From the NCBI GenBank assembly GCA_944345705.1, contig CALVML010000005.1, positions 11,282 through 75,281 of the forward strand: 64,000 nucleotides of DNA, written 5' to 3'. Within the stretch, counting starts at the first letter, position 1. Every line of letters begins with the position of its first letter. A program made the position numbers and the translations under genes. Below are positions 31,089-44,379 of the stretch, piece after piece. Under the pieces are notes generated by a model. The model saw only the letters and a list, made by a program, of their open reading frames with translations. It ran no database searches and had not been told where the DNA came from. The stretch is from an uncultured Clostridia bacterium (lineage in GTDB: Bacteria; Bacillota; Clostridia; Christensenellales; UBA1242).

Positions 31089-31798
31089 AATATATAGCAT
31101 TTTGTTCGTATGGCAAAGACAGTTTAGCAATGATTATTAAAATTAAAGAACTTAATATGTCACTCGACGAAGTGGTTTATTGTGATATCAGATTCGATGA
31201 TGAACCATTAAGTGGAGAAACTCCAGAAATGCGAGAGTTTATTCCAAAAGCCGATAAAATACTTGAAGAAAAATTTGGTATAAAAGTTAAGCATATCACT
31301 TCAAAATGGAACTTTAAAAATCATTTTTACAGAGTGAAACAAAAAGGTAATCATATTGGTGATAATTATGGGTTTCCTTATATAGTCGGAGCTTGGTGCA
31401 ATGCGAGATTAAAAATGGAACCTATAAGAGAATATCTCAAGCAATTCAAAGAACCAGTAATTCAATATATAGGCATTGCTTATGACGAGCCTAAAAGATA
31501 TGAAAGGCAGAGAACGAAAGGGAATATTTGTCCTTTGGTTGATTTAAAAATAACAGAACAAGAAGCCTTAGAGATTTGTAAAAAGTATGATTTACTAAGT
31601 CCAATTTATGAAAGTAGTTTTCGTGGTGGTTGTTGGTTTTGTCCAAAACAAAGTTTAGCTCAGTTGAAATGGTTGTATAACAATCATAAAGATTTATGGG
31701 ACAAACTAAAATCAATGGAAAAAGACAGCCACAACACATTTAAACCGAATGTAACATTAACTAACCTTGAAAAAAGATTTAAAAAGGAGCAGTTATGA
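31085..31798 (+). CDS. PAPS-reductase-like (PP-loop ATPase family) protein
   Basis: N-terminal PP-loop variant AFCSYGKDSLAM, WCNARLKMEPI, and C-terminal GGCWFCPKQ. Confidence 0.7.
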   Translation: MKYIAFCSYGKDSLAMIIKIKELNMSLDEVVYCDIRFDDEPLSGETPEMREFIPKADKILEEKFGIKVKHITSKWNFKNHFYRVKQKGNHIGDNYGFPYIVGAWCNARLKMEPIREYLKQFKEPVIQYIGIAYDEPKRYERQRTKGNICPLVDLKITEQEALEICKKYDLLSPIYESSFRGGCWFCPKQSLAQLKWLYNNHKDLWDKLKSMEKDSHNTFKPNVTLTNLEKRFKKEQL

Positions 31799-32061
31799 AA
31801 AGAACATTAGAATTGCCTTGTGATATAAACGATTTGGTTTATACATTGGGTGTAAAAAGAGCATTAGAAACTTTACTCACTGCTGGTGAGGTCATACCAA
31901 GAACTGTTGACGAGATTATTATCAATTCAAGAGGAATTGAAATTCATAGTGAAAGGACTAGAGAAGACGATAATAATTTTTATGGATATATTGGTGAAAC
32001 TGTTTTTTTGACTAGACAGGAAGCAGAAGAGAAATTAAAAAAATTAAAGGAGCAGTTATGA
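31795..32061 (+). CDS. hypothetical protein (88 aa)
   Basis: ATGA-coupled start preceded by the conserved AAAGGAGCAGTT junction. Confidence 0.55.
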   Translation: MKRTLELPCDINDLVYTLGVKRALETLLTAGEVIPRTVDEIIINSRGIEIHSERTREDDNNFYGYIGETVFLTRQEAEEKLKKLKEQL

Positions 32062-32276
32062 AAGAAGAATTTTATTTAGTAGCGTGTATTATATCTTGGA
32101 TTATATCAATAGGCTCATTTATAACAACAATGGTCTTTCAAATTGTTTTATCTATACAAAGATATGGTGTAATTTTTGGAAATAATACGGTTATTATTCC
32201 GCATTGGAGTTTAGCTTTTATTGGTAGTGGAGTTTTATTTGGAATTTTGGGATGGTTATTCTCAACTAAATTATAA
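32058..32276 (+). CDS. small membrane protein (72 aa, 2 TM)
   Basis: LVACIISWIISIGSFITTMVFQIVL and LAFIGSGVLFGILGWLF hydrophobic segments. Confidence 0.55.
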   Translation: MKEEFYLVACIISWIISIGSFITTMVFQIVLSIQRYGVIFGNNTVIIPHWSLAFIGSGVLFGILGWLFSTKL

Positions 32277-32287
32277 AAGGAGCAGTT

Positions 32288-32623
32288 ATGAAAGAAACAA
32301 AAGTGTATGTAGATGAGTTGCCGAAGAGTTGTGTTGGTTGCAAACATTTTGCAGAAAATAGGCGACAATGTAATTTAGAATTGTGTTTGCACTGGAGTGA
32401 AGAAAAACAAAAATATAACGATTGTCCACTCAAAAGTCTGCACGAATATAAAAAAGAGTTGGTGGCGAAAGTGCTGGATAAAATAAAAATGTTAGCAAAA
32501 GACAACTTTGATTTTGATATGTGTAATGAGTGTGGTGAATTTGTTCACAATGACAATGTTTTAACAGAAAGTGATTTCAATAAAGTTTTAAATCAAATAC
32601 AAAAGGAGTTTGAGAATGTTTAA
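32288..32623 (+). CDS. Cys-rich hypothetical protein (111 aa)
   Basis: CVGC..., CNLELC, CNECG motifs. RBS AAAGGAG. Confidence 0.55.
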   Translation: MKETKVYVDELPKSCVGCKHFAENRRQCNLELCLHWSEEKQKYNDCPLKSLHEYKKELVAKVLDKIKMLAKDNFDFDMCNECGEFVHNDNVLTESDFNKVLNQIQKEFENV

Positions 32624-33020
32624 TTATAATAAAGATGAATTATTTGGGAGATACTGCTTTATTGAACAAAAAAGATATGGTGTTCCAAATGAAAAATTTT
32701 TATATAAAATTATTGGCACTTTTCAAAGTAATGCCTGGAGTGAAGTTCCTGTTGATGCTAATGATAGAGATATGAAATTGCATAACCATTCCGAAAAAGT
32801 AGTAAATGTGATTTGTTGTGGTGTTTGTGAAGAAAAAGTTGAAAGATATAGACTTTGCGATGTTTATGTTTTGTCTAACCAAGAAGACACCAAGTGGCAG
32901 AAGCTGAAAGAGTGGATTGAAGAAAGAGAGAAAAAACATACGCTGATGTTAAAAGCATCTGCACTTGAAGATATTGAGATTTTAAATAAAATGCAAGAGT
33001 TGGAGGGAGAAGATGAGTGA
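32616..33020 (+). CDS. hypothetical protein (134 aa)
   Basis: ATG 7 nt after AAGGAG (the ORF-track start at 32610 is a TTG). Confidence 0.55.
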   Translation: MFNYNKDELFGRYCFIEQKRYGVPNEKFLYKIIGTFQSNAWSEVPVDANDRDMKLHNHSEKVVNVICCGVCEEKVERYRLCDVYVLSNQEDTKWQKLKEWIEEREKKHTLMLKASALEDIEILNKMQELEGEDE

Positions 33021-33768
33021 TAAATTCAGTCTATACCAAACAGACGGACTTTGGGGAATTATTGAAAATACTTTTAATGAAAAGCAAACATCAATAAAAT
33101 CGTATTTTGGTTCAGATTTAATTATAAAACGTCTTAATGAACAAGCCGAGCAAATCGACCAACTCAAACAGCAACTCGAAATCCAGTCGAGCGTGTTGAA
33201 ACAAACTCGTGAGAAGTTATCGAAAGCGGAGCACGATAGGGATAGGTATCGAGACAAAATCAAGGAACAGCAAGAGCAACTCGCCAAAAAAGAAAATATG
33301 CACCCATTAGACGAGAAATTATTTCAACATTATTGTGCTTATAAACACATAGAGCCTGAGATAAAGGGTTGTCTAGATAGAGATAGAGAAAGGGAATATA
33401 TAAAACAACTCACTGAAAAGCAAAAGACGATTGACGAGATAAATAAAGAGTTTGTGCAATCAGTCCACGACTGGAAAGCATTGTGTGCTGAAAAAGACAA
33501 AGAGATTGAGAAACTAAAACAACAATATACTATTTTAGAAAATGAGAATGGTAAACTCACAACAGAGTTAATTATGGACAAATATAAAAAGGCAAAAAAG
33601 GAAGTGTCTTTTGGAAAGCAACTCGCAATTCAGGAACTTGCAGAAGTCGAAAGATTGTTATATGAAAGTCATTATAAAGAAATTGACAATAGATATTATG
33701 CTGAATATGAAGATATTAAGAATTTGATTGATAGCCGAATACAAGCATTAGAAGAGTTAAAAGGATAG
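33013..33768 (+). CDS. coiled-coil hypothetical protein (251 aa)
   Basis: Long K/E/Q-rich heptad stretches. Coupled start. Confidence 0.6.
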   Translation: MSDKFSLYQTDGLWGIIENTFNEKQTSIKSYFGSDLIIKRLNEQAEQIDQLKQQLEIQSSVLKQTREKLSKAEHDRDRYRDKIKEQQEQLAKKENMHPLDEKLFQHYCAYKHIEPEIKGCLDRDREREYIKQLTEKQKTIDEINKEFVQSVHDWKALCAEKDKEIEKLKQQYTILENENGKLTTELIMDKYKKAKKEVSFGKQLAIQELAEVERLLYESHYKEIDNRYYAEYEDIKNLIDSRIQALEELKG

Positions 33769-33772
33769 AAAG

Positions 33773-34018
33773 ATGTTAAAGATTAAAGCAGATAAAATGA
33801 AAGACTTGGAAAAGTTTAAATTAGAATATCATCGAGAGCAAAGAAACATATATGAACATTATAGTTATGTAACAAAAGGTGATTTTTGTAACGATGAATT
33901 ACATTTGTGCGTATGGTGTCATAATAGAGAAATTAAAGCATTTGATAGAGAAGGACACGATTTATTGTTTGACTTAATCACTTCTGGCATGGTCGAAAAG
34001 GTGGTGGAAGATGAGTAA
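33773..34018 (+). CDS. hypothetical protein (81 aa)
   Basis: ORF in the colinear early operon. Confidence 0.5.
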   Translation: MLKIKADKMKDLEKFKLEYHREQRNIYEHYSYVTKGDFCNDELHLCVWCHNREIKAFDREGHDLLFDLITSGMVEKVVEDE

Positions 34019-34313
34019 GTATTGGTTTGCTAATGAGAAGCAGAAAAAAGCAGTAGTTCCATTTAAACATTTTTCAGAAGAGAAAGCCAGATTATATAGG
34101 CTAGAAGATGACAATATAAGATTTAAACAAAAGGTTTTAGATGCTTGGCAGGCTCAAAATAATATTTTAGGGCTTTTAACAACTATGACACTTGCTTGTA
34201 GAAGTAATAAAACAATTAGATTAGATGAAGAAGATTGTAAGTTCTTATATGACATAGCAAGCGGGCGAGTTCAATTAGACTTTCCAAAATTAGATGAGGT
34301 GGGAAATGAGTAA
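34011..34313 (+). CDS. hypothetical protein (100 aa)
   Basis: Start inside the GAAGATGAGTAAG junction. Confidence 0.5.
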   Translation: MSKYWFANEKQKKAVVPFKHFSEEKARLYRLEDDNIRFKQKVLDAWQAQNNILGLLTTMTLACRSNKTIRLDEEDCKFLYDIASGRVQLDFPKLDEVGNE

Positions 34314-34521
34314 GACAGAGTATGCGTGGGTTATTCAGAGAAATGATGGGATGTATGTAAATTTTATGGACAATGACGACTTGACTTGGTATGAACACAC
34401 TTGGCAAGCAACAATGACTTGGAGTAAATATAAAGCCGAAAAAGACATTATCCTTTGGAAATTACAAAACTGCCGACCAGTCAAAGTAAAAATTGAGATA
34501 GTAGGAGAAGAAGATGAGTAA
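34306..34521 (+). CDS. hypothetical protein (71 aa)
   Basis: ATG after GAGGTGGG, at the ATGAGTAAGACAGA junction. Confidence 0.5.
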   Translation: MSKTEYAWVIQRNDGMYVNFMDNDDLTWYEHTWQATMTWSKYKAEKDIILWKLQNCRPVKVKIEIVGEEDE

Positions 34522-34924
34522 GACAGAAAAAGCAACAAGAGAATATTTAGAAACATTATCAAAAGACCAAGTAATAGACCTTTGTTTGCAATTTATGTTT
34601 GATGCCGAAATTTCAGAACAGCAACTCGACCAAGCGAACGAAAGACTGAAAGGTGCGATTGTGCCGAAGTTTAAGATTGGGCAAGAAGTATTTATCGTTA
34701 ATACTGACTACTATTACAAAAAAGACTACAAAGTTGAAAAACATAAAATAGTTGGAATAGAAGATAAAGTTGACCGAAAAAATACTTATGTTAGGTGGTA
34801 TTCGTTAGAATTTAAGGATTGCCCAGCGAGTTATAGCAAACGATATAAGTTTTTAGAAAAAAATGTTTTCGCTACAGAAACCGAAGCCGAGAAAAAACTA
34901 CAAGAACTGCGAGGTGGGGAATGA
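34514..34924 (+). CDS. hypothetical protein (136 aa)
   Basis: ATGAGTAAGACAGA junction start. Confidence 0.55.
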   Translation: MSKTEKATREYLETLSKDQVIDLCLQFMFDAEISEQQLDQANERLKGAIVPKFKIGQEVFIVNTDYYYKKDYKVEKHKIVGIEDKVDRKNTYVRWYSLEFKDCPASYSKRYKFLEKNVFATETEAEKKLQELRGGE

Positions 34925-35583
34925 AACAAACAAAGATAGATTGGTGCGATTGCACGATAAACCCTGTTGTTGGTTGTAAGAATGGTTGTCCTTACTGCTA
35001 TGCAAGAAAAATAAATAACCGTTTTCATTTTATTGAAGATTGGAGTGAACCACAATTTTTTCCTGAAAGACTAAAACAATTGAACTCCAAAAAACCAAAA
35101 TCAATTTTTATGGATAGTATGAGTGATATTGGTTGGTGGAAAGAAGAATGGTGTGATAGAGTTTACAGTGAAATATATAAAAATCCACAACATACTTATA
35201 TATTTTTAACTAAATGTGAAGAGTTAAATATGCCTTATTATTTAAGTCAAGGTAAATTAGCAAATAGAGTATTTTTTGGACAATCACGAACACAGGGTAT
35301 TGTATATAATGGTTTTAACGAGAAATACAGAGATTTTTTAAGTTTAGAGCCTTTGCTTGGACCAGTATATTTTAATGGATTTGGTGGAATTAGACAAGTC
35401 ATAATAGGTGCTGAAACAGGTAACAGAAAAGGCAAAGTTATACCAAAGAAAGAATGGATAGATGACATAGTTAAACAATGCGACAAAGCAAAAGTTAGGG
35501 TGTTTATGAAATCAAGCCTAAAAGATATTATGGGCGAAGATTTTAGACAAGACAAACTAATATGGGATGTGAATGATGGATAA
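34921..35583 (+). CDS. phage Gp37/Gp68 family protein (DUF5131)
   Basis: N-terminus TKIDWCDCTINPVVGCKNGCPYCYARK matches the tkIeW.d.t.NP..GC....C..CYA signature of that family. Confidence 0.7.
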   Translation: MKQTKIDWCDCTINPVVGCKNGCPYCYARKINNRFHFIEDWSEPQFFPERLKQLNSKKPKSIFMDSMSDIGWWKEEWCDRVYSEIYKNPQHTYIFLTKCEELNMPYYLSQGKLANRVFFGQSRTQGIVYNGFNEKYRDFLSLEPLLGPVYFNGFGGIRQVIIGAETGNRKGKVIPKKEWIDDIVKQCDKAKVRVFMKSSLKDIMGEDFRQDKLIWDVNDG

Positions 35584-35740
35584 TGACGAATTTAAACAAA
35601 TAGAATTAGAAATTAAAAAACTAAATGTAAAAGAAAATCAACTAATAAGGGAATTAAAACAAATACAAAAAGTAAAAATTGAACTTGCAATGATTTTGGT
35701 TAGTGATGACTACGCTAAACAAGTGTTAAAAGGAGAATAA
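35576..35740 (+). CDS. small coiled-coil protein (54 aa)
   Basis: MDNDEFKQIELEIKKLNVKENQLIRELKQIQK... Below the ORF-track cutoff and fills an otherwise empty gap. Confidence 0.35.
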   Translation: MDNDEFKQIELEIKKLNVKENQLIRELKQIQKVKIELAMILVSDDYAKQVLKGE

Positions 35741-35741
35741 T

Positions 35742-36320
35742 ATGGGACAAAGATTAAATATTGAGATACAAAGAAAGAACAAAACTTTGGCAAATTCATA
35801 TTATCACTGGTCGGCTTATTCTAGTTCTGCCTGTGAATTAGCACAACAAATAGTAAATTATATAGATAATAATCCACAAAATTGTGATGATGTATTATAT
35901 GCTATTAGGATTTTAGAACATACAGGAGCAGGATTGACAGATAATCTTTTACCAAGTGAATTAAAAACTGCACAAGAGATGTTTCCAAATGAAAAATTTA
36001 AAGAATGCAAAGGCAGGAATTATGGATTGTTAGCAATAACTGATAAAGGTATAGAAGAAACAAGAGATTGGGAAGAAGGAAGAGTTACGATAAATTTAGA
36101 TAATAAAACAATAAATTTTGAAGTTTACTGGGAATACGACCCTACTGAAGAAGATTACTATGACACGAAACCACAATTTAAAAAATTAGGATTGAATTTA
36201 AATAATTTAAAATTTACTGAACTTGACGAATTAGCGGAACAAATCAATTTTACTGAACATTCTAATCGAAGAATTATAGAAGAACTTCCAAATGGAAAGA
36301 AAATTAAATTTATTTATTAG
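35742..36320 (+). CDS. hypothetical protein (192 aa)
   Basis: RBS AAAGGAGAA. No recognised motif. Confidence 0.6.
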   Translation: MGQRLNIEIQRKNKTLANSYYHWSAYSSSACELAQQIVNYIDNNPQNCDDVLYAIRILEHTGAGLTDNLLPSELKTAQEMFPNEKFKECKGRNYGLLAITDKGIEETRDWEEGRVTINLDNKTINFEVYWEYDPTEEDYYDTKPQFKKLGLNLNNLKFTELDELAEQINFTEHSNRRIIEELPNGKKIKFIY

Positions 36321-36330
36321 GGAGAATGAT

Positions 36331-36741
36331 ATGGCAGAAAGATTGACAAGAAATAATAAAGTTAATTTTTGCTTTCACGATGAGGCTTCTAATATGGTAT
36401 ATTATAGACTTCAAGATTTGGAAGATATTATGGAAAAGTATGGCATCGAGAGTGTGGAAGAATTGGAAGAAAAATTAAATGAGCCAGAGAGAATTTGGAA
36501 TGCCAATTTAAAGGATTTAAAACAACAAGTTAAGCGAGAAATAAACAAAGAACTTGAAACTGACCGTGACACTTGGAAAAGGGCTTGTGAGTTGGCAGTA
36601 TTATGGATTGCTCAAGAACTCAAAGTATTACCGAAAAATATTAAAAAGTCAGAGTTTGAATTTGAAGATGAAATGATTATCGAAGAAAATACAAATTACT
36701 TCTACCAGCAAGCGAAAAAGGAAGGTGAACATGGAAATTAA
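36331..36741 (+). CDS. hypothetical protein (136 aa)
   Basis: ATG after AGGGAGAA. Confidence 0.55.
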   Translation: MAERLTRNNKVNFCFHDEASNMVYYRLQDLEDIMEKYGIESVEELEEKLNEPERIWNANLKDLKQQVKREINKELETDRDTWKRACELAVLWIAQELKVLPKNIKKSEFEFEDEMIIEENTNYFYQQAKKEGEHGN

Positions 36742-37183
36742 ACAAGCACTTGAAGAACTTAATATGTATCGAAAGACTAAAAAGCGAATGAGTTACATAA
36801 AAGAACGAATAGCTGAGCTACAAGACCGCATATATTCGCTTGGTGGTGCTACTGAAAATCTAGGAGTGCAAGGCGGACGAGCTTCAAAAGAAGATAGGGT
36901 AATTGCTTTGCTGGATAAGATAAAGGTCTATCGCAACGATTTAATTAATGCAGAAATGTATAGTTTATGTTTGCAGAATGACATTGAAAGAAAGATATAC
37001 AAGTTAAGAGAGCCTTATTGTTCGGTGTTAAGAGGTTATTATGTGGAAAACAAAAGCTATGAAAGATTAGCTGTTGAAATGCACTATACTTTTGAAAGCA
37101 TAAAGCAAATCAAAAGAAGGGCAGTTAATGAATATTCTAAATTACCACAATTATATGATAATGAATATTATGTGAATATATAA
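36731..37183 (+). CDS. ArpU/RinA-like late transcriptional regulator (sigma-70 region-4-like)
   Basis: C-terminal SYERLAVEMHYTFESIKQIKRRAVNEYSKL resembles a region-4 HTH. About 150 aa, and the last gene before the packaging module, as for RinA/ArpU. Confidence 0.6.
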   Translation: MEIKQALEELNMYRKTKKRMSYIKERIAELQDRIYSLGGATENLGVQGGRASKEDRVIALLDKIKVYRNDLINAEMYSLCLQNDIERKIYKLREPYCSVLRGYYVENKSYERLAVEMHYTFESIKQIKRRAVNEYSKLPQLYDNEYYVNI

Positions 37184-37187
37184 AAAT

Positions 37188-37208
37188 TGTTCACTTTTGT
37201 TCACTTTT
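37188..37208 (+). repeat. tandem TGTTCACTTT(T) repeat just upstream of a TATAAT box
   Basis: TGTTCACTTTTGTTCACTTTT, followed by TATAAT at 37216-37221. Confidence 0.6.
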
Positions 37209-37227
37209 TATGTTTTATAATAGTATT

Positions 37228-37414
37228 GTGGAAAAATGAAAAGAGTTGGACAAGCCACAGGTAAGAGCAAGCGTGCAAAGTGGTCGCTGAAATCAGCATC
37301 TTGCCTCCACTCCTTTAAATTGATTTAGGTGGAACATGCGTCACCCCTCCTATTATGTTTAATATCAACTACACTTGACGCAGACCGGTGGGGTGATCAC
37401 GGTGTAGTTATGTC
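37228..37414 (+). ncRNA. candidate structured leader RNA of the late (packaging) operon
   Basis: Noticeably more GC-rich than its flanks. Hairpins GCTG-AAAT-CAGC (37286-37297) and AACTACAC/GTGTAGTT (37368-37375/37402-37409). Competing pairings TGCGTCA/TGACGCA and TCACCCC/GGGGTGA. No family recognised. Confidence 0.35.
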
Positions 37415-37446
37415 AAAAAGAATGATGTGCATGTCATTCTTTTTTT
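37415..37446 (+). terminator. intrinsic terminator inside the late-operon leader
   Basis: AAAAAGAATGAT-GTGCAT-GTCATTCTTTTTTT. Stem 37420-37426/37433-37439 with A/U extension, and a 7-T run at 37440-37446. Confidence 0.5.
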
Positions 37447-37511
37447 ATGGAAGCAAGAGATTGAAGTCTGTGCAACTCAGACAGCTTTCAAATATATAAA
37501 AGGAGTTGATA

Positions 37512-37817
37512 ATGGAAGAAAAAATTTTGAAATGTCCTAATGTGACAGAAAGGACAGAAGAATTTATCAGTCGCGGGTATGAGGATGAAGGTGATATTCT
37601 TGTTAAGCCAGTCAGTACAAATTCAACTATCTGCATTGATAAGGAAACAGGCATAGTTGCTGACATAACAAATGATGGTGTTTCATGTGAAGGCTTGGCT
37701 GAAGTTGTAGAGCTTAGCGGTGCTGGTCTTCTTGAAACCAATCAAGAAAGTGAAGAGGTGGTAGACGATGCAAAACAAACAGCTGAAGGTGCAGAGACGG
37801 GAGAAACAATTAACTAA
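37512..37817 (+). CDS. highly acidic hypothetical protein (101 aa)
   Basis: ATG after AAAGGAG. By hand count about 25 D/E versus 7 K/R. Overlaps the terS start. Confidence 0.55.
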   Translation: MEEKILKCPNVTERTEEFISRGYEDEGDILVKPVSTNSTICIDKETGIVADITNDGVSCEGLAEVVELSGAGLLETNQESEEVVDDAKQTAEGAETGETIN

Positions 37818-38193
37818 AGCGCAAGAGATATTTGTTCAAGAGCTTTTCAAGGGTGCAAGTCAAAGGCAGGCGTATTACAAAGCATATCCAAATTCAAGGA
37901 ACTGGGCTGAAAATAGTGTGGACTCAAATGCATGTGCACTAGCTAAAGACGCTAAGGTATTGCAAAGGCTAAAGGAACTTAATAGCAAAGCTGAAAAAAG
38001 CACTATTTATGATGCACAGCAGTTGCGCGAATTTTGGACTAAGTTACTTCTAGACGATGAAGCAGGCATTGCAAATAGATTGAAAGCAAGTGAGCTTTTA
38101 GGCAAGTCACAAGGAATGTTTATTGAAAAACGAGAAACGAGTATATCAAATAAAGATGATTGTATTATAAAGGTAGTCAAGAGTGACGATTGA
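37768..38193 (+). CDS. terS: terminase small subunit
   Basis: LTKAQEIFVQELFKGASQRQAYYKAYPNSRNWAENSVDSNACALAKDAKVLQRLKEL is the Terminase_2-type N-terminal HTH pattern. Immediately upstream of terL. Confidence 0.75.
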   Translation: MQNKQLKVQRREKQLTKAQEIFVQELFKGASQRQAYYKAYPNSRNWAENSVDSNACALAKDAKVLQRLKELNSKAEKSTIYDAQQLREFWTKLLLDDEAGIANRLKASELLGKSQGMFIEKRETSISNKDDCIIKVVKSDD

Positions 38194-39478
38194 ATTTAAT
38201 CCTGATGGACTGGTAAACAAAATATATCAGTCTTTTTTGTTTGCATCGCAAAGGACACAAATATTCTTTGGCGGTTCATCATCTGGTAAATCAGTTTTTC
38301 TTGCAGAAAGAGCGGTTCTCGATGTGTTATCTGGTCGTAATTATTTAATTGTTAGAAATACAGGAAATACTCTCAAAAAGTCGTGCTGGAATGAAATTTG
38401 GAAAGCAATATCACTTTTTAAACTCAATCAATATTTTGATGCATCTAAAAGTGACATGACTATTACTTGTAATCTTAACGACAAACAAATCTTGTTTTCT
38501 GGGCTTGACGATGTTGAAAAGGTTAAATCTATTACACCGATAAAAGGTGCCCTTACAGATATTTGGATTGAAGAAGGAACTGAAGTAAATTACGAAGATT
38601 ATAAACAGCTTCGCAAAAGACTTCGAGGATATTCAAAACACTCTAAACGCATAACAATATCGTTTAACCCAATCTATCAAACGCACTGGATTTATACAGA
38701 GTTTTTCGGAGATTGGGAAGATAACAAAAATCTTTATGAAAATGATAATTTACTCATTCTTAAAACAACGCATAAAGACAATGAGTTTCTATCACAAGAC
38801 GACCACGACGAACTTGAGAATGAAAAAGACCCATATTACTATCAAGTTTACACTTTAGGTAATTGGGGAGTACTCGGTGATAGAATATTCACTAACTGGC
38901 ATGTCGAAGATTTAAGTGTGCCTGTAAAAGTATTAAAGGCAGGTCAAGAAATTGAAATGCCTTTATATCAAACATTTGACAATATACGAACTGGCTTAGA
39001 CTTTGGCTTTGCTCAAGACCCATCAGCTTTTATCAAACTTAACTTTGATAGAAAGAATAAAAAGATTTATGTTTTTCAAGAGTACTACGAGAAAGGTAAA
39101 ACCAATTATGACCTTGCACAAGATATTAAGCCGTTTCTAGGTTATCAAAGAGTTATTGCTGATAGTGCTGAGCAAAAATCAATACAAGAGTTAAAAGATT
39201 GTGGTATCAATGCAGCACCAGCATTCAAAGGGGGAGATAGTGTAAGGTTCGGTATTCAGTGGCTACAGGGTTACGAGATTATTATTGATAAGTCTTGTCA
39301 GAATTTAAAAAACGAGCTCACTCTTTACCAATGGAAGAAAGATAAAGACGGCAATACTATCAAACAGCCTGTAGACAAGTATAACCATCTAATAGACGCA
39401 ATGCGTTATGCGCTTTCCGAAGATATGGATAGAATACCACCAGCTAGAATTATAAGTAAAAAGGAACTAGGATTATAA
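38183..39478 (+). CDS. terL: terminase large subunit (PBSX/Terminase_3-like)
   Basis: Walker A FFGGSSSGKSVF, Walker B-like LTDIWIEEGTE, and a C-terminal nuclease region (ADSAEQKSIQEL...YNHLIDAMRYAL). Confidence 0.88.
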   Translation: MTIEFNPDGLVNKIYQSFLFASQRTQIFFGGSSSGKSVFLAERAVLDVLSGRNYLIVRNTGNTLKKSCWNEIWKAISLFKLNQYFDASKSDMTITCNLNDKQILFSGLDDVEKVKSITPIKGALTDIWIEEGTEVNYEDYKQLRKRLRGYSKHSKRITISFNPIYQTHWIYTEFFGDWEDNKNLYENDNLLILKTTHKDNEFLSQDDHDELENEKDPYYYQVYTLGNWGVLGDRIFTNWHVEDLSVPVKVLKAGQEIEMPLYQTFDNIRTGLDFGFAQDPSAFIKLNFDRKNKKIYVFQEYYEKGKTNYDLAQDIKPFLGYQRVIADSAEQKSIQELKDCGINAAPAFKGGDSVRFGIQWLQGYEIIIDKSCQNLKNELTLYQWKKDKDGNTIKQPVDKYNHLIDAMRYALSEDMDRIPPARIISKKELGL

Positions 39479-40837
39479 ATGATAATAGTTGATAAAGATA
39501 CAATAGCTACTCCAAGTTTAATCACAAAATGGATAGCCAAGCACATAGAACTTTATAAAAAGTTTACAAAAAATCATGATTATTACAATGGTAAGCATGA
39601 AATTTTAGATTTAGAGAAAGAAGATAAACCTAACAATAAGACTGTTATAAATCTTGCTAAATACATAACAGTCATGGCTACTAATTATCTCGTTGGTAAA
39701 CAAGTCGATTATAGCTATAATGGTGAGCAGGGGAAAGAAACATTTGACAAGATAATGGACTTATACAAGAGACAGTCAATGCCTATGCATGACAAATTGA
39801 TGGCAAAAACAATGTCTATATCTGGTCTTAGTTATGAATTAGCTTATATGTCAAGTGATGAAAAACCCGTGCCTAAGGTGGCGGATATAAGCGAGTATGA
39901 TGCAGAGATTATATGCGACAACACTGTAGAACATAATTGTTTATATGGGGTCCATTTTTATAAGGCAGATGACGATAAAACTATAATAGAACTCTATGAT
40001 AGTACATACAAAACAACTTATCAAGCAGGAGCAAACTTTGTCAACCCTAAACAAGTTGGTAAGCCTGAAGCACATGGATTTGACAGAGTGCCGATAACCG
40101 AGCTTAAAAATAACGACGAGATTCAAGGCGATTTTGAACAAAATATAAAGGCTATTGACTCATATGAAAAGATATTCGCTGAACAAATAAATGATATTGA
40201 AGATTTTAATGACGCAATACTCATGTTATATAATACCAATTTTTATCAAGGTGATCAGAAAGAGTTTGAAGATAGACGAAAACAACTAAAGAAAGATAAA
40301 ATTCTAGAATTTACTTCAAAGGAGCAATCTGCAGCATGGCTTACTAAAATAATGGATCAGAGTAAAATAAGTGTTCTCGCTTCTGCGTTAAGGGCAGATA
40401 TACATGCTACAAGTTTTGTACCTAATATGACTGATGTAAACTTTGCAAACAACTCAAGTGGTGTTGCTATGCAATATAAATTAATAGGATTTGAGGCTCT
40501 TACAAGCGAGAAACAGACATTCTTTGAAAAATGCTTAAGGCGAAGGTTAAAACTTTTTGCAAGTGCGTTAAAATTGTTAGGTGGGCAGGAAATTAATGTT
40601 CAAGACATAACCATTACGTTTAATCGTTCTCTTCCACGCAACGATGTCGAGATGGCAAGTATTGTATCGCAGGTAGATAATCGAAATATTATTGACAAAG
40701 AAACTTTAGGCAAACAATTTTCTTTCTATAACGAAGATGTAAAGAAAAACTTAGAGAAGGAAAAAGAAGAAAATCCACAAATCGATTATGCTAGCGTTAA
40801 TAATCCAGGTCTTTATTCTTTCGGTGGTAGCTTTTAA
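39479..40837 (+). CDS. portal protein (SPP1 gp6-like)
   Basis: 452 aa, lying directly between terL and the MuF-like gene. The call rests on order and size; only general resemblance was judged by eye. Confidence 0.7.
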   Translation: MIIVDKDTIATPSLITKWIAKHIELYKKFTKNHDYYNGKHEILDLEKEDKPNNKTVINLAKYITVMATNYLVGKQVDYSYNGEQGKETFDKIMDLYKRQSMPMHDKLMAKTMSISGLSYELAYMSSDEKPVPKVADISEYDAEIICDNTVEHNCLYGVHFYKADDDKTIIELYDSTYKTTYQAGANFVNPKQVGKPEAHGFDRVPITELKNNDEIQGDFEQNIKAIDSYEKIFAEQINDIEDFNDAILMLYNTNFYQGDQKEFEDRRKQLKKDKILEFTSKEQSAAWLTKIMDQSKISVLASALRADIHATSFVPNMTDVNFANNSSGVAMQYKLIGFEALTSEKQTFFEKCLRRRLKLFASALKLLGGQEINVQDITITFNRSLPRNDVEMASIVSQVDNRNIIDKETLGKQFSFYNEDVKKNLEKEKEENPQIDYASVNNPGLYSFGGSF

Positions 40838-42459
40838 TGGCAAATCGACTTGCAGATATTTTTGCAGATCTTGAAAGTCAGCTTATATCAAATCAAAGGG
40901 CTTTATTTCAAAGTTATCCAAACTCGTCGCTCTCAGCTGTTGAAAACTTCCAAATGAATATGCTGGCAAATCAAAGCATGCTAGAACAGGTAAATGTACA
41001 AGCTGTCAACAATGCTTATCGTCAAGCTACTATTTATATGAATGACACGATAACTAAAGGCTATAATAGAGGTGTATCAAGTGTTGCGAGTCAGCTTGAC
41101 ACTGACATTAACAATAATGAAAATGAGCGTGCTGTGGCTTTAAAAAACAATGCAGACAGTGTAATTGCACGCATGTGCCGTATAGCGTTATCTTCTGCTA
41201 TGGGTGCATTTTCTGGTATTGTCAGTGCCGTTTCTGTATACAATCAAGCACAAGACTTATATCAAGCTGTAGACCAAGCACAATCGCAATATCTTGAAAA
41301 GGGTATTGTAGGGAGTGTTAACACAAATGGCGCTCAAACAAATATTGAAACCTTTGCAGACATTGTTGAAGGGGAATTTGACCATAATGCAACACTTACG
41401 GGTGAAGGACATGCTAGAGATGAGACTGGTAATTTTTATGTTGTAGTTACCGCTCATGTCGGCTGTTGTGAAAAATGTGCGAAATGGGAAAACCTGGTTC
41501 TAATTGACGATTGGAAAGCAAATGGTCAACCTGATGGAGTGCATCCGTTATTAAGTGAAGCGGTGAGTCAGGGCTTGTTGCACCCAAATTGCAGGCATAG
41601 GTTTAGAGTACCCTTTAAAGGTGAGGAGAAAAAACTTAAAGGCGATTATCACGAAACATGGACAGCCGAACAAAACAGGAGACAATATCAAGCGGAGCAG
41701 AAACAACGGCGTTATGAAAGGGAAATACGCAAATATAAAAGGCTAGAACAGGGTAGTTTAACTCAGAGCGAACAGTTAAAAGCACACCAAAAAGTACTTG
41801 AATATCAAAAAAAGCAACGAGAGCATATAAGAGCAAGCAATCAATTAGATGGTGTTAAACTTTTCAGACAATATGAAAGAGAGCGTATAGGTGGCGAAAC
41901 AAAACCGCAAGTATCACCAGAGATGCCTATATCTCTAAAAAGTAGTAATGGCTCATCACAATCTGGTGAGAGCGCCATTATAAGCCATGATCGTTATAAA
42001 TTGGATAATCTTGATAACGATTTAAGCGCGACGGAAGATTATATTTCTTCGCTTGACAAAGAACATAGTTTTATATTTACCGAAGATGGCGACGTCTATG
42101 GAGTTGAGGGTAATGAGAATTCTGTTGATCCGCAAATAGTTGGAGAAGACAAGCTTATAGGCTCAGTCATAACACACAATCACCCATATGATGAACTTGC
42201 TCCAAGCAAAGAGGATCTTGAATTTATGATAACTCATAGTATCAAGGAATTAAGAACGGTTGACAAGAATTATACTTATATATTAAAATTTAATGGTAAA
42301 TTATCTTCTCAAGAGATATTAAATTTATATCAAGAAACTTTTTTTGAAGTTGGAGATGATATGGTATACAATGGACTTAAAGGCGATGCCGCTCATTTTA
42401 TACTTGAAAGATTAAAGGACAAGGTGGAAGGATTATATTATGTCAGAATTAAGAGATAG
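40837..42459 (+). CDS. MuF/SPP1 gp7-like minor head protein fused to a C-terminal RadC/JAB-like domain
   Basis: MuF core ...CCEKCAKWENLVLIDDW...LLHPNCRHRF, then a basic coiled-coil linker, then a C-terminal about 145 aa containing GSVITHNHPYDELAPSKEDLEFM (HNHP-x5-PS-x-ED spacing as in RadC HNHPSGxxxPSxxD). Confidence 0.75.
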   Translation: MANRLADIFADLESQLISNQRALFQSYPNSSLSAVENFQMNMLANQSMLEQVNVQAVNNAYRQATIYMNDTITKGYNRGVSSVASQLDTDINNNENERAVALKNNADSVIARMCRIALSSAMGAFSGIVSAVSVYNQAQDLYQAVDQAQSQYLEKGIVGSVNTNGAQTNIETFADIVEGEFDHNATLTGEGHARDETGNFYVVVTAHVGCCEKCAKWENLVLIDDWKANGQPDGVHPLLSEAVSQGLLHPNCRHRFRVPFKGEEKKLKGDYHETWTAEQNRRQYQAEQKQRRYEREIRKYKRLEQGSLTQSEQLKAHQKVLEYQKKQREHIRASNQLDGVKLFRQYERERIGGETKPQVSPEMPISLKSSNGSSQSGESAIISHDRYKLDNLDNDLSATEDYISSLDKEHSFIFTEDGDVYGVEGNENSVDPQIVGEDKLIGSVITHNHPYDELAPSKEDLEFMITHSIKELRTVDKNYTYILKFNGKLSSQEILNLYQETFFEVGDDMVYNGLKGDAAHFILERLKDKVEGLYYVRIKR

Positions 42460-42700
42460 AAGAGAGTTCTATGTCGCAATGGTGAAGAGGCAGATTAACA
42501 GAAAAAGAGATAGCTTTTACATTTTAGATGAGGAAGCCTATATAAATGAAATGGTGAACTTTTTTATGGGATTTGAGGAAAAAGAGAAAGAAGCGTATCC
42601 TGGTGGCATAGGTGTTACCAAAGAAATGCTTAGAATTAGAGATGAAAAACTTCTTCGGATGGAAGAGATAATGAAAAAACATTTGATTAAAAAAGAGTAA
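42440..42700 (+). CDS. hypothetical protein (86 aa) coupled to the MuF-JAB gene
   Basis: Overlaps the MuF gene by 20 nt and is followed by a long hairpin. No motif recognised. Confidence 0.5.
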   Translation: MSELRDRREFYVAMVKRQINRKRDSFYILDEEAYINEMVNFFMGFEEKEKEAYPGGIGVTKEMLRIRDEKLLRMEEIMKKHLIKKE

Positions 42701-42748
42701 GAAAGATCTAGAGTAAGATAGATCTTACTCTTTCTTAATATTTTGCCC
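42695..42748 (+). terminator. extended imperfect hairpin / possible terminator between the MuF unit and the scaffold gene
   Basis: GAGTAAGA (42711-42718)-TAGA-TCTTACTC (42723-42730). Outer AAGAAA/TTTCTT pairing, then AATATTTT. Confidence 0.4.
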
Positions 42749-42826
42749 TAAACACGGCGTAAAACTGTTTCGTTAGGCGCGTTAAGTCAAATTTGCCATG
42801 TGGGCGTAAAACACAAGGAGAAAAAA

Positions 42827-43360
42827 ATGTCTGAACAGTTAAATCAAGACACAGGGGTTGATATTTCTATCGACTCACAAGAGAACAAAGAAAACAAGCA
42901 AGCAGAGGGAAAGGTTGAAAAATCATTTACACGTGATGAAGTTAACAAAATGATTGCAACCGAGAAGAAAAAGGCAATAGCTGAATATGAAAGGCTTGCA
43001 AAGATGACGGAAACGGAGCGCACAAAAGAGCGTATGGCTCAAAAAATTAGAGAACGCGACAAAGAAAGAGCTGATTTTGAAGCGGAGAAGAAAGCGTTTG
43101 AAATTGAAAAAATGAAGATGCAAACATCAAAGGAACTTATAAATCGAAAGTTACCTGCCGAGTTCGCATCTTTTTTAGTTACAGATAACGCTGAAACAAC
43201 AAAACAAAATCTTGATAGCTTTGAAAAGATGTTTCGTACTTCAATTGAGAGTGCCGTTGCTGACAAAATACGTGGCAAAAATCCGCCAATGACATCGACA
43301 ACGAAAGTGGACAGCAAGTCATCCACATTAAAAACAAAGGCTTGGAACAAAAATAAATAA
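42827..43360 (+). CDS. scaffolding protein
   Basis: Start at the ATG after AAGGAGAAAAAA. K/E-rich coiled coil immediately upstream of the capsid gene. Confidence 0.6.
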   Translation: MSEQLNQDTGVDISIDSQENKENKQAEGKVEKSFTRDEVNKMIATEKKKAIAEYERLAKMTETERTKERMAQKIRERDKERADFEAEKKAFEIEKMKMQTSKELINRKLPAEFASFLVTDNAETTKQNLDSFEKMFRTSIESAVADKIRGKNPPMTSTTKVDSKSSTLKTKAWNKNK

Positions 43361-43374
43361 TAAAGGAGAAAATA

Positions 43375-44331
43375 ATGGCAAACACAATAAATTATGCTGA
43401 AAAATGGCAACCAGAGATACTAGAAATCTTAAATCAAAACACAATTACCAGTCCATTTATTGCTGATGCAGATTCAGTTGAATGGACAGGAGCTAAAACA
43501 CTTCATTTTACACAAGCTGCAACAAGCGGTTTTAAGGCACATTCAAGAGATGGTGGCTGGAACAAAGGTAACGTAACTCAATCTGATGTAGATTATACAA
43601 TCGAACATGATCGTGATATTTCTTTCCTTGTAGATAGAATAGATGTTGACGAATCTAATGGAACTGCATCTATAGATAATGTTTCAAAAGTATTTACTGC
43701 AACTCAAGAAGCTCCAGAAGTTGACGCACGTTTCTTTGAGCGAGTATATAACGCTGCGAGTACAAATACTCTTGCTGAAGAACTTGATGTGTCTACTCTT
43801 ACAAAGGATAATGTTCTTTCGACTATTAAAAACTTTATGCTTAAAGGCAAACTTCGTAGATATATAGCAAGAGGCTCACTTATTGCATATGTTACAAGTG
43901 AAATTATGAATATGCTTGAATTATCAACAGAAAGTAAGCTTAAAGTTGAACTTACTACTATTGCAGACGGCGGAATAGGTATTGAAACTCGTGTAACCAA
44001 TATTGACGGAGTTTATCTCTTTGAAGTAATTGATGATGAGAGATTCTACTCTAAATTTGATTATACAGATGGGTTCGAAGCGGCATCAGATGCAAAAGCA
44101 CTTGCTATCGTTTTTGCTTCAACAGATGTTGTTAAAACTGTTCCTAAAACAAATGCAATCTATATCAAGAAAGCAGGCGAGCACACTGTAGGTGATGGTG
44201 ACTGGTATGCAAACCGTTCTATGTGGGATACTTTTGTTTTCCCTAACGGCAAAGATGGCAAGATTGAAGGTATTTATGTAATTACCAAGAAAGCGACAAC
44301 ATCGACTGAACCAGAAGATAATTTAGAATAA
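43375..44331 (+). CDS. major capsid protein
   Basis: 318 aa, strong RBS AAAGGAGAAAA, follows the scaffold and is followed by a good terminator. The call is mainly positional. Confidence 0.65.
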   Translation: MANTINYAEKWQPEILEILNQNTITSPFIADADSVEWTGAKTLHFTQAATSGFKAHSRDGGWNKGNVTQSDVDYTIEHDRDISFLVDRIDVDESNGTASIDNVSKVFTATQEAPEVDARFFERVYNAASTNTLAEELDVSTLTKDNVLSTIKNFMLKGKLRRYIARGSLIAYVTSEIMNMLELSTESKLKVELTTIADGGIGIETRVTNIDGVYLFEVIDDERFYSKFDYTDGFEAASDAKALAIVFASTDVVKTVPKTNAIYIKKAGEHTVGDGDWYANRSMWDTFVFPNGKDGKIEGIYVITKKATTSTEPEDNLE

Positions 44332-44334
44332 AAT

Positions 44335-44366: not shown

Positions 44367-44379
44367 ATAAGGAGAGAGT

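What the first reader, a model, noticed from the sequence alone, without database searches (positions are those of the whole stretch)
37184..37511. Late-operon control region: tandem repeats + TATAAT + about 200-nt structured leader with competing pairings + intrinsic terminator upstream of terS
Seen in sequence. Directly after the ArpU/RinA-like gene lies TGTTCACTTTTGTTCACTTTT, then TATAAT (37216-37221), then a stretch clearly richer in G+C than its surroundings. That stretch contains the hairpins GCTG-AAAT-CAGC and AACTACAC/GTGTAGTT. The segment ATGCGTCACCCCTCC (37336-37350) can pair with either TGACGCA (37376-37382) or GGTGGGGTGA (37387-37396). Both partners lie in the loop of the second hairpin, so the result is a pseudoknot or two mutually exclusive folds. 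The stretch ends in a terminator hairpin with 7 Ts at 37440-37446, about 65 nt before the first late gene. Established knowledge: RinA/ArpU-type regulators activate a promoter just upstream of terS in Firmicutes phages, and lambda late transcription starts with a short terminated RNA that needs antitermination. Inference: late gene expression here may have two layers, activator binding to the tandem repeats plus read-through control of a leader terminator. The leader could alternatively be a stable phage sRNA or could overlap the pac/cos site. I could not match it to any RNA family.
Basis: partly seen in the sequence, partly recalled or inferred. Interest (0 to 1): 0.6.

Follow-up and report, generated by a model that had tools for sequence, protein, structure and literature searches.

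The report
Structured leader of phage late operon
This gene-free stretch is the on-switch of a chicken-gut prophage's virion and lysis genes: regulator binding repeats, a promoter, a conserved folded leader RNA not in Rfam, a stop signal that transcription must cross, and a tRNA-derived hairpin. The layout suggests these phages turn on late genes by reading through a terminator.

Summary
Fifteen related prophage loci show that most of them are conserved. The regulator (36731-37183) has a sigma-region-4-like domain and fits the published LtrA branch of the Ltr late activators. Its recognition helix changes in step with the two 10-bp direct repeats (37187-37206). These lie 9 nt before a conserved TAnAAT box.

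The transcript is predicted to start near 37228 and is non-coding. Its parts are:
- a 5' hairpin domain;
- a conserved single strand;
- hairpin P3, supported by compensatory changes, with an invariant loop;
- a loop-to-upstream pairing, GCGUC:GACGC, supported by one compensatory change;
- an intrinsic terminator (37415-37446) kept in all relatives, in three different sequence versions;
- a covarying tRNA-like minihelix (37449-37489), which is a real tRNA-Trp in other relatives.

Rfam has no match. No pairing competes with the terminator, so it is not a classic riboswitch. The packaging-site reading is excluded, because the leader travels with three unrelated packaging modules.

The terminator also ends the early operon, so late genes need read-through. 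My best guess is that this depends on the complex assembled at the late promoter, as with lambda Q. That is inferred, not shown. Phage phi11 has the same layout, which bears on how RinA acts at a distance.

The parts
36731..37183 (+). Late regulator gene. It encodes a 150-aa basic protein (pI 9.05) and is the last gene of the early operon. The protein has two long helices plus a C-terminal sigma-70 region-4-like helix-turn-helix, matching the LtrA branch of the Ltr superfamily.
   Evidence: Domain hits: Pfam Sigma70_r4 at E = 2e-4, below the Pfam cut-off; phrog_36 'transcriptional regulator' at 1.8e-14; NCBIfam sigma70-ECF, weak. Structure: AlphaFold model with pLDDT 86; the C-terminal domain superposes on ECF sigma region 4 at rmsd 1.6-2.5 A. 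pI. The recognition helix co-varies with the repeat type.
37187..37206 (+). Operator: two direct repeats, TTGTTCACTT x2, spaced 10 bp start to start. They begin 4 nt after the regulator's stop codon.
   Evidence: Relatives carry TTGCACCC, TTGTACCC or TGACACA pairs at the same place, each with a matching regulator C-terminus.
37216..37221 (+). -10 box TATAAT of the late promoter. No -35 hexamer lies at 16-18 bp, so the promoter is activator-dependent. A conserved TATYGTGG follows at 37224-37231.
   Evidence: Kept as TATAAT, TACAAT or TAAAAT in all relatives, at a fixed distance from the repeats. The sigma-70 scan finds no -35/-10 pair here.
37228..37310 (+). P1 domain: a hairpin domain at the 5' end of the predicted transcript. 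The outer stem is GUGGA (37228-37232) paired with UCCAC (37306-37310). The interior is variable and includes GCUG-AAAU-CAGC at 37287-37298.
   Evidence: MFE folds of 12 relatives all start with this hairpin. At least six different stem sequences all pair. The start site is predicted from the -10 box and has not been mapped.
37311..37337 (+). Conserved, apparently single-stranded tract UCCUUUAAAUUGAUUUAGGUGGAACAU.
   Evidence: Nearly invariant in 10 of 11 core sequences. Partly kept in the divergent relative L028.
37338..37347 (+). 5' strands of the pseudoknot: GCGUC (PK1, 37338-37342) and ACCCC (PK2, 37343-37347).
   Evidence: PK1 pairs with GACGC at 37377-37381. L013 has GCGUU:GACGC (a G.U intermediate) and L016 has GCGUU:AACGC (compensated). 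PK2 pairs with GGGGU at 37390-37394 and shows one-sided transitions only.
37367..37409 (+). P3 hairpin, AACUACAC paired with GUGUAGUU. Its 27-nt loop holds the invariant GACGCAGACCGGUGGGGU, which carries both pseudoknot partners.
   Evidence: Seven sequence versions all pair; L024 has GUCAUGCC/GGCAUGAC and L004 has AGCUGCAU/GUGCAGCU. G.U pairs fit the + strand only.
37415..37446 (+). Intrinsic terminator: A5 tract, stem GAAUGAU/GUCAUUC, loop GUGCAU, then U7. It is also the first terminator after the early operon.
   Evidence: The same stem occurs in 11 relatives. Different hairpins with U6-8 sit at the same place in L003, L026 and L028. No other + strand terminator candidate was found between 25292 and here.
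37449..37489 (+). tRNA-derived minihelix: outer stem GGAAGC/GCUUUC, an 11-nt linker, and an inner hairpin GUCUG-UGCAACU-CAGAC (5 bp, 7-nt loop). It occupies the slot that holds tRNA-Trp(CCA) in other relatives.
   Evidence: Compensatory changes in L013 (GGAAGU/ACUUCC and UUCUG/CAGAA) and L031. A tRNA at the same position in L015, L016, L017, L019, L021 and L023 scores 42-46 bits on Rfam tRNA. L026 and L028 have a version without an anticodon arm.
37500..37817 (+). Shine-Dalgarno AAGGAG (37500-37505) and the first late gene (ATG at 37512, 101-aa acidic protein). terS (37768-38193) and terL (38183-39478) follow.
   Evidence: Metatranscriptome contigs start at 37500 and cover the late genes.

Best explanation
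This is the late-operon control region of a temperate phage of an uncultured gut Clostridia bacterium.

Shown by comparison:
- The sigma-region-4-like Ltr regulator binds the two direct repeats just upstream of a -35-less sigma-A-type promoter.
- Transcription from about 37228 gives a non-coding leader of about 220 nt. It has a 5' hairpin domain and a pseudoknotted hairpin (P3 plus PK1) and ends in an intrinsic terminator.
- The same terminator is the first stop signal after the early operon.
- A tRNA or tRNA-derived minihelix then separates the leader from the first late gene.

Inferred:
- The terminator is a gate. It blocks early-operon and basal transcription from running into the virion and lysis genes.
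- Only polymerase that started at the Ltr-occupied late promoter crosses it efficiently. The likely reason is that the regulator, possibly helped by the nascent leader domain, makes the complex resistant to termination. This would be a functional analogue of lambda Q at PR'-tR'.
- The tRNA-like element is then cut by RNase P or RNase Z, which severs the leader from the late mRNA.
For: - Regulator and operator co-vary, and the regulator has a sigma-4-like fold. This matches the published Ltr rules (PMC3753634).
- The -10 box is kept at a fixed spacing from the repeats.
- P1, P3, PK1 and the minihelix show compensatory changes.
- A terminator is present in all 15 relatives, in three unrelated sequence versions.
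- No other + strand terminator candidate lies between 25292 and 37415, and no promoter-like site lies between the terminator and the first late gene.
- Early read-through RNA would contain the same leader, so an RNA-only mechanism could not tell early from late transcription.
- L023 keeps the same terminator and tRNA-Trp but lacks the pseudoknot core. The core therefore cannot be the only read-through device.
- phi11 has the same layout: repeats, a -10-like box, a 5' hairpin and a terminator, followed by the published 5' end.
- In Ferrer 2011 (PMC3152322), a reporter downstream of rinA-terS was silent without RinA, and RinA needed sequences more than 155 bp upstream of the mapped 5' end.
- Late genes, but not early genes, are covered in four metatranscriptomes.
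Against: - No transcript ends were mapped. The start site, the termination efficiency and the read-through are all predictions.
- The terminator stems are modest (-5 to -8 kcal/mol for most). Passive leakage from a strongly activated promoter could therefore suffice.
- The regulator shows no similarity to any known Q protein, and no sigma-4-like antiterminator is known to me.
- The role of the invariant P3 loop and of the pseudoknot is unexplained under a purely protein-mediated mechanism.
- For 80alpha the published 5' end near terS was reported as a primary end (PMC3152322). If so, a promoter lies downstream of the terminator in that phage.
- The metatranscriptome evidence is contig-level at 3-12x depth.
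Confidence: 0.42

Rival explanations
1. Passive gate. The terminator is a constitutive, partly leaky insulator. The regulator only raises initiation, and a fixed fraction of polymerases leaks through. The 5' hairpin and the structured leader serve RNA stability or processing, not antitermination.
For: Most terminator hairpins are weak to moderate, -5.4 to -7.9 kcal/mol without the U-tract. No alternative pairing with the terminator exists. L023 lacks the pseudoknot core but keeps the same terminator. Published work treats Ltr proteins as activators (PMC3753634, PMC13123087).
Against: It does not explain the invariant P3 loop or the pseudoknot covariation. A leaky gate would also let early-operon transcription into the lysis genes. 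In phi11 the reporter was silent without RinA despite upstream transcription (PMC3152322).
Confidence: 0.25
2. RNA-mediated antitermination. The nascent pseudoknot domain (37311-37409) acts in cis on RNA polymerase, like HK022 put, Bacillus EAR or the conAn2 RNA of Gram-positive plasmids. It makes the polymerase resistant to this terminator and to later ones.
For: A conserved, G+C-rich, covarying domain lies directly upstream of a terminator at the head of an operon of about 21 kb. conAn2 is likewise a G+C-rich leader element with stem-loops (PMC8191782). Further + strand terminator candidates lie inside the late region, for example at 53221.
Against: Early read-through RNA carries the same domain, so the gate would be open all the time. 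L003, L023, L026 and L028 lack the core yet keep a terminator. There is no match to Rfam families. The regulator is not a ConAn1 (PF17362) protein.
Confidence: 0.12
3. Trans-acting small RNA. The terminated leader of about 220 nt, capped by a 5' hairpin and a 3' terminator hairpin, is a stable phage sRNA. It acts on host or phage targets, for example through its CCUCC or GGGG motifs.
For: Both ends are protected by hairpins. RNase P cutting at the tRNA-like element would release the same RNA from read-through transcripts. The module moves between phages as a unit: 97.8% identity to L021, against 76.8% for the regulator gene.
Against: The leader is absent from the contigs of four metatranscriptomes in which the late genes are covered. 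No extended complementarity to anything else in the 64-kb window was found.
Confidence: 0.08
4. Riboswitch or factor-sensing attenuator. The pseudoknot binds a metabolite, a protein or a tRNA and thereby tunes termination.
For: A conserved pseudoknot with an invariant loop sits upstream of a terminator. From memory, UUAGGUGGAACAUGCG resembles the T-box consensus, and a tRNA gene sits next door in relatives.
Against: No sequence competes with the terminator beyond what shuffled sequence gives. About 10 nt separate P3 from the terminator. No Rfam riboswitch or T-box match appears even at E <= 10. UGGA does not match the tRNA-Trp discriminator G.
Confidence: 0.05
5. A DNA-level element (pac or cos site, or origin), or a small protein-coding gene (the 56-codon ORF at 37329-37499).
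For: The position is just upstream of the packaging genes. An open frame exists.
Against: The same leader precedes three unrelated packaging modules: terL of 431 aa, terL of 474 aa, and a module starting with 139- and 187-aa proteins. Helices keep G.U pairs that fit one strand only. Indels of 1, 2 and 17 nt break the frame among relatives.
Confidence: 0.02

Closest known systems
Ltr superfamily late-gene switches of Gram-positive temperate phages (RinA, ArpU, LtrA/Sigma70_r4, LtrB/DUF1492, LtrC; Quiles-Puchalt 2013, PMC3753634; Ferrer 2011, PMC3152322; Phi13 Ltr, PMC13123087)
   Same: [quoted passage not shown] It has a sigma-region-4-like C-terminus that sets specificity. Direct repeats lie immediately after the gene. 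A TATA-type box and the late operon follow downstream, with a terminator between the regulator gene and the late genes. In my reading, phi11 has the same order: repeats, a -10-like box, a hairpin, a terminator, then the mapped 5' end.
   Different: There is no BLAST-level similarity to any cultured phage regulator. The published work treats the terminator as the regulator gene's own terminator and the proteins as activators. It does not describe a conserved structured leader, a pseudoknot or a tRNA-derived element. In 67 papers holding at least three of the terms RinA, antitermination, terS and phage, none of the RinA papers listed uses the word antitermination.
Lambda Q / PR' / 6S RNA / tR' late switch
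   Same: The regulator gene lies directly upstream. Its DNA site is at the late promoter. A short leader ends in an intrinsic terminator that must be crossed to express a long late operon.
   Different: The regulator is unrelated to Q proteins, since no Q family is hit and the fold is sigma-4-like. The promoter here appears to depend on an activator, whereas PR' is constitutive. The leader here has conserved structure. Antitermination is not shown.
RNA antiterminators: HK022 put (PMC9378689), Bacillus EAR, and conAn2 of pLS20-type plasmids (PMC8191782)
   Same: A structured, G+C-rich RNA at the head of a long operon, upstream of terminators. In conAn it sits next to the gene for a small partner protein.
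   Different: There is no sequence or Rfam similarity. The partner protein family differs: ConAn1 is PF17362, while this regulator is sigma-4-like. Some relatives lack the RNA core but keep the terminator.
Phage leader RNAs matured by RNase P (satellite P4 CI RNA, P1/P7 c4 RNA; from my own knowledge, not checked here)
   Same: A tRNA-like structure in a phage operon leader could direct RNase P cutting and release a small leader RNA.
   Different: Here the element ranges from a full tRNA-Trp to a minihelix across relatives. Neither cleavage nor any regulatory role of the released RNA is shown.

Membership tests
Ltr superfamily, family II (LtrA, Sigma70_r4) late regulator with repeat operator | [quoted passage not shown] | tested here: met
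   150 aa, pI 9.05. It is the last gene of the + strand early block at 26801-37183, and terS and terL follow.
Ltr superfamily, family II (LtrA, Sigma70_r4) late regulator with repeat operator | C-terminal domain similar to sigma-70 region 4 | tested here: met
   Pfam Sigma70_r4 at E = 2e-4, 21.3 bits against a 24.1-bit cut-off. NCBIfam sigma70-ECF, weak. The modelled C-terminal domain superposes on SigR, SigE and SigD region 4 at rmsd 1.6-2.5 A. There is no sigma-2 domain.
Ltr superfamily, family II (LtrA, Sigma70_r4) late regulator with repeat operator | [quoted passage not shown] | tested here: met
   Repeats at 37187-37206. Four repeat types each go with one recognition-helix version across 14 regulators. 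P0003 is identical to the window's protein in its N-terminal part but has a swapped C-terminus and different repeats.
Ltr superfamily, family II (LtrA, Sigma70_r4) late regulator with repeat operator | Protein binds the repeats and is required for late transcription | not testable with these tools
   Needs EMSA and reporter assays.
Lambda-Q-type promoter-loaded antitermination | Homology to a known Q protein family | tested here: not met
   No Q family in Pfam, PHROGs or NCBIfam. The best fold matches are sigma region 4.
Lambda-Q-type promoter-loaded antitermination | Regulator site at the promoter, and an intrinsic terminator between the promoter and the late genes | tested here: met
   The terminator is conserved in all relatives.
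Lambda-Q-type promoter-loaded antitermination | Promoter-proximal sigma-dependent pause element (a -10-like sequence in the initial transcribed region) | tested here: inconclusive
   A conserved TATYGT lies 2 nt after the -10 box (37224-37229). It overlaps the predicted start site instead of lying at +1 to +6, and no pause data exist.
Lambda-Q-type promoter-loaded antitermination | Regulator-dependent read-through of the terminator | not testable with these tools
   Needs in vitro transcription or reporter assays.
Any described RNA family (Rfam 15: riboswitches, T-box, EAR, ribozymes, phage RNAs) | Covariance-model match | tested here: not met
   No hit in the leader at gathering score. At E <= 10 over 37100-37600 only three chance-level hits appear. 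The leaders of 12 relatives match only tRNA.
Riboswitch or attenuator with an expression platform | Mutually exclusive pairing between the sensor domain and the terminator | tested here: not met
   The best duplex of the terminator's 5' arm with the upstream leader is about -4 kcal/mol, equal to the shuffled mean.
Intrinsic (factor-independent) terminator | Hairpin directly followed by a U-tract, conserved in position | tested here: met
   7-bp stem plus U7, extended to 12 bp by the A-tract. Relatives have U6-8 and stems of -5.4 to -11.3 kcal/mol. Termination efficiency was not measured.
tRNA gene | Rfam tRNA or ARAGORN match | tested here: not met
   The window's element at 37449-37489 is not called. 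The elements at the same position in L015, L016, L017, L019, L021 and L023 are called: 42-46 bits, anticodon loop CUCCAAA = Trp(CCA), with a bulged anticodon stem.

The most novel reading that the evidence does not exclude
Ltr-superfamily late regulators (LtrA here, and by layout also RinA of phi11) may not be simple activators. They may be promoter-loaded antitermination factors built on a sigma-region-4 fold. They would work together with a previously undescribed class of leader RNA: a 5' hairpin, a pseudoknotted hairpin, a gate terminator and a tRNA-derived processing element. This would explain why RinA needs sequences more than 155 bp upstream of the mapped terS 5' end, with a terminator in between.
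Probability: 0.3. Interest if true: 0.8.

Novelty: new variant of a known kind. Interest (0 to 1): 0.55.

Why it matters
Ltr-type regulators control packaging, lysis and therefore transduction in many temperate phages of Gram-positive bacteria. How they work is unresolved. The RinA papers themselves note that binding far upstream of the mapped start, across a terminator, does not fit simple activation.

This locus gives a compact example backed by comparison. The operator and promoter sit upstream of a conserved structured leader and a gate terminator. The natural variants are informative: some relatives lack the core, the terminators come in three versions, and the tRNA slot ranges from a full tRNA to a minihelix.

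That makes one question directly testable: do late genes turn on through terminator read-through, and does the protein or the RNA do it? The locus also adds an RNA motif that Rfam lacks. And it suggests that tRNA-derived elements serve as processing punctuation at the start of late mRNAs.

Tried and rejected
- Rfam at gathering score and at E <= 10 found no family for the leader.
- blastn of the region and tblastn of the regulator against 50,697 phage records found nothing.
- The genome search and the fetch from genomes were shut, so the host genome (for example its rrn boxA) could not be examined.
- Exact-pattern scans of IMG/VR for core motifs gave only chance hits in high-G+C phages (L001, L002, L005-L009).
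- The one metagenome scan gave 3 true hits out of 30.
- IMG/VR holds three relatives of the regulator (L010-L012). A reverse-strand ORF follows the regulator gene there, and I did not analyse them further.
- T-box idea: rejected. There is no RF00230 hit, no shared strand with the terminator, and UGGA does not match the discriminator.
- HDV-like, pistol, twister and hammerhead ribozymes: no Rfam hit. For HDV-like ribozymes the topology also differs.
- Antiterminator pairing: none beyond shuffled sequence.
- Trans targets in the prophage: no complementarity longer than 14 nt.
- Second copies of the operator in the window: none.
- ConAn1/conAn2 membership: the protein family differs (PMC8191782).
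- Coding potential of the 56-codon ORF: rejected because of frame-breaking indels.
- Run X25 (library type unknown) gave one 226-nt contig of a relative over 37186-37410, which is uninformative.
- The local GGUGG/CCUCC hairpin proposed by RNAalifold has no varying pair, so it can be neither supported nor excluded.
Full report
**Observation**

The region 37184-37511 is the gap between a 150-aa regulator gene (36731-37183) and the first late gene.
- the TTGTTCACTT x2 repeat at 37187-37206, unique in the window;
- TATAAT at 37216-37221;
- a block of 45-49% G+C at 37250-37399, against 20-37% around it;
- the two hairpins;
- the segment 37336-37350 and its two possible partners;
- T7 at 37440-37446.

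Five corrections apply:
- The first late gene is a 101-aa acidic ORF (ATG at 37512). terS is the second gene and terL the third.
- The terminator stem is weak, -5.4 kcal/mol without the U-tract, and the consensus scanner missed it.
- The whole leader folds no better than shuffled sequence, z = -0.35.
- The GCUG-AAAU-CAGC hairpin lies in a variable insert.
- A conserved minihelix at 37449-37489 was overlooked.

**Context**

The window holds a prophage. tRNA-Ser lies at 23436-23526, with integrase and repressor-side genes on the minus strand. The + strand early block runs from 26801 to 37183, and the + strand late block from 37512 to about 59 kb. Public runs that contain this sequence are chicken-gut metagenomes. 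Relatives come from uncultured Clostridia MAGs and gut assemblies.

**Relatives**

The genome search was shut, and the phage collection has no match by DNA or by protein. I therefore collected loci through the regulator protein. A genome-contig scan gave L003 and L004. A protein search gave 31 homologues at 56-100% identity. Twelve look-ups of the contigs that encode them gave L013-L029. One metagenome pattern scan added L031, L041 and L049. This yields about 15 distinct control regions.

**Promoter and operator: a known kind**

Every relative has two direct repeats right after the regulator's stop codon. They are followed by the same TTTTTATGTTT spacer and a TAnAAT box.

The repeats come in four types: TTGTTCAC, TGACACA, TTGCACCC and TTGTACCC. 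Each type goes with one version of the regulator's C-terminal helix: ESIKQIKRRAV, DTVRHIKMKAV, DGVKSIKxRGV and DGVKQIKRRGI. P0003 is identical to the window's protein through most of its N-terminal part, but it carries a different C-terminus and different repeats. That is a clean module swap.

The modelled protein (pLDDT 86) is two long helices plus a domain that superposes on ECF sigma region 4. It has no sigma-2 domain. It is small and basic, with pI 9.05.

All of this matches the Ltr superfamily as published. Family II (LtrA) is defined there by similarity to Sigma70_r4, direct repeats lie immediately distal to the gene, and the C-terminal part sets specificity (PMC3753634). Phi13 Ltr likewise has repeats upstream of a TATA box and a mapped start site (PMC13123087). 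The 'ArpU/RinA-like' label is therefore right in kind, but the branch is LtrA-like.

**The leader RNA**

The start site is predicted at about 37228, seven nt after the -10 box. From there every relative begins with a hairpin whose 5' strand is GUGG.... At least six different stem sequences all pair, while the interior varies freely.

Next comes a conserved tract, CUCCUUUAAAUUGAUUUAGGUGGAACAU.

Then comes hairpin P3. Seven sequence versions all pair, for example AACUACAC/GUGUAGUU, AGCCACAC/GUGUGGUU, GUCAUGCC/GGCAUGAC and AGCUGCAU/GUGCAGCU. Their G.U pairs fit the + strand only.

On the MAFFT alignment the named structure has 97% of cells paired, against 43-63% when the partners are slid. It has 4 pairs with changes on both sides, and this count leaves out the misaligned L024.

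The P3 loop, GACGCAGACCGGUGGGGU, is nearly invariant. GCGUC (37338-37342) pairs with its GACGC, and there is an evolutionary series: C-G, then U.G in L013, then U-A in L016. If both pairings form, they cross each other and also cross P3, which makes a pseudoknot. Nothing suggests they act as a switch.

The region is not coding, because indels of 1, 2 and 17 nt break the 56-codon frame. Rfam has no matching family.

**Terminator and what follows**

Eleven relatives share the hairpin AAAAGAAUGA...UCAUUC followed by U6-8. L003, L026 and L028 have unrelated hairpins with U6-8 at the same place. L023 has the shared terminator but lacks the pseudoknot core.

My scan finds no other + strand terminator candidate between 25292 and this one. 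No promoter-like site lies between it and the first late gene. So this terminator also ends the early operon, and the late genes can be reached only by reading through it. No upstream segment competes with the terminator's 5' arm beyond what shuffled sequence gives.

After the terminator, the window, L004, L013, L024 and L031 have a minihelix: a 6-bp outer stem and a 5-bp hairpin with a 7-nt loop. L013 carries two compensatory changes in it. Six relatives have a tRNA-Trp(CCA) at that position, at 42-46 bits on Rfam tRNA. ARAGORN was confused by its bulged anticodon stem. L026 and L028 have acceptor, D and T arms without a normal anticodon arm. A slot that tolerates a full tRNA, an armless tRNA or a minihelix points to processing by RNase P or RNase Z, not decoding. 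That is an inference.

**Module behaviour**

The window's leader is 97.8% identical to that of L021. The two regulator genes are 76.8% identical, and the 400 nt downstream are unrelated. The same leader precedes three different packaging modules. This excludes a pac or cos role and shows that the leader is exchanged or conserved as a unit.

**RNA data**

Four chicken-gut metatranscriptomes have contigs over 37500-45000 at depth 3-12. They have none over the early genes or the leader. This shows late-operon RNA. It gives no support for an abundant leader sRNA. It is compatible with a leader that is cut off. But these are low-depth contigs, so the 5' boundary at 37500 is not a mapped end.

**Mechanism**

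The element order, its conservation and the RNA helices are shown.

What is inferred is that the terminator is a gate, and that polymerase started at the Ltr-occupied promoter crosses it preferentially. Three arguments favour a promoter-loaded mechanism like lambda Q over an RNA-only one:
- Early read-through RNA contains the same leader.
- L023 and three other relatives lack the core.
- In phi11 a reporter behind rinA-terS stayed silent without RinA, and RinA needs sequences more than 155 bp upstream of the mapped 5' end (PMC3152322).

I read the phi11 gap myself. It has two 11-nt direct repeats right after rinA, a -10-like TATTAT, a 9-bp hairpin and the terminator GGGUUGGCUGAUUAUAGCCAAUCC plus U6. 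The published 5' end follows. That is the same layout as in the window.

Three points count against this reading. The terminators are modest, so leakage may suffice. The protein is unrelated to any Q protein. And the invariant RNA loop remains unexplained.

I give 0.42 to regulator-dependent read-through, 0.25 to a passive gate, 0.12 to RNA-only antitermination, and the remainder to a trans-acting sRNA, a sensor RNA, or a DNA element or small ORF.

**Comparison and novelty**

The promoter and operator are a new member of the Ltr kind. The leader RNA motif, the gate-terminator logic and the tRNA-derived element are not described in the papers I could search. None of the RinA papers listed by that search uses the word antitermination. 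conAn, put and EAR are the nearest functional analogues, but they differ in sequence and in partner protein (PMC8191782, PMC9378689).

Earlier notes of this scan report the same architecture in many other genomes. I treat those as leads. They agree with what I found independently here.

Verdict: a real feature, and a new variant of a known kind. Its mechanism is untested but can be tested directly.

Noticed in passing
L015:2351-2421, L019:2236-2307, L021:2220-2291, L023:2101-2171, L016:2190-2260, L017:2183-2253: A phage tRNA-Trp(CCA) with a one-base bulge in the anticodon stem and an encoded CCA end lies between the leader terminator and the first late gene. ARAGORN reports it as 'tRNA-???' with a 2-nt anticodon or misses it. 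Rfam tRNA scores it at 42-46 bits.
   Followed up: partly
L026 about 2165-2230; L028 about 1215-1335: tRNA-like elements have acceptor, D and T arms but no normal anticodon arm. L028 has a long insert in its place. They occupy the same slot as the tRNA-Trp and are not detected by Rfam at E <= 1.
   Followed up: no
window 37512-37817: The first late gene encodes a strongly acidic 101-aa protein with no Pfam, PHROG or NCBIfam hit. It overlaps the terS start by 50 nt and is conserved in L004, L013 and L024.
   Followed up: no
window 37228-37245 versus 37413-37426: The 5' end of the leader (GGAAAAAUGA; GGAAGAAUGA in L004) resembles the 5' arm of the terminator (AAAGAAUGA). The transcript's 5' end could therefore pair with the terminator's 3' arm and U-tract, and the MFE of the whole leader draws this pairing. 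Its significance is unknown and may be only A/U richness.
   Followed up: partly
window 53190-53226: An intrinsic-terminator candidate (GCAGGACAAGUAGUCUUGC + U6, -8.6 kcal/mol) lies on the + strand inside the late region, right after the inserted ATPase/RloB cassette and before the 836-aa tail gene. Late transcription would have to cross it as well.
   Followed up: no
L061:1840-2030 (phage phi11, AF424781 16339-16529): Among 91 Staphylococcus phage records, matches break at about query position 465-486, near the -10-like box. Some records share rinA plus the repeats, and others share only the leader's 3' part, the terminator and the terS start. This is the same kind of module boundary as in the Clostridia phages.
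   Followed up: partly
L010-L012 (IMG/VR), just after the regulator gene: In the three IMG/VR relatives, a 237-aa ORF on the opposite strand follows the regulator gene, with an ATGTCCT x2 repeat next to an inverted repeat. The late control region must be arranged differently there.
   Followed up: no
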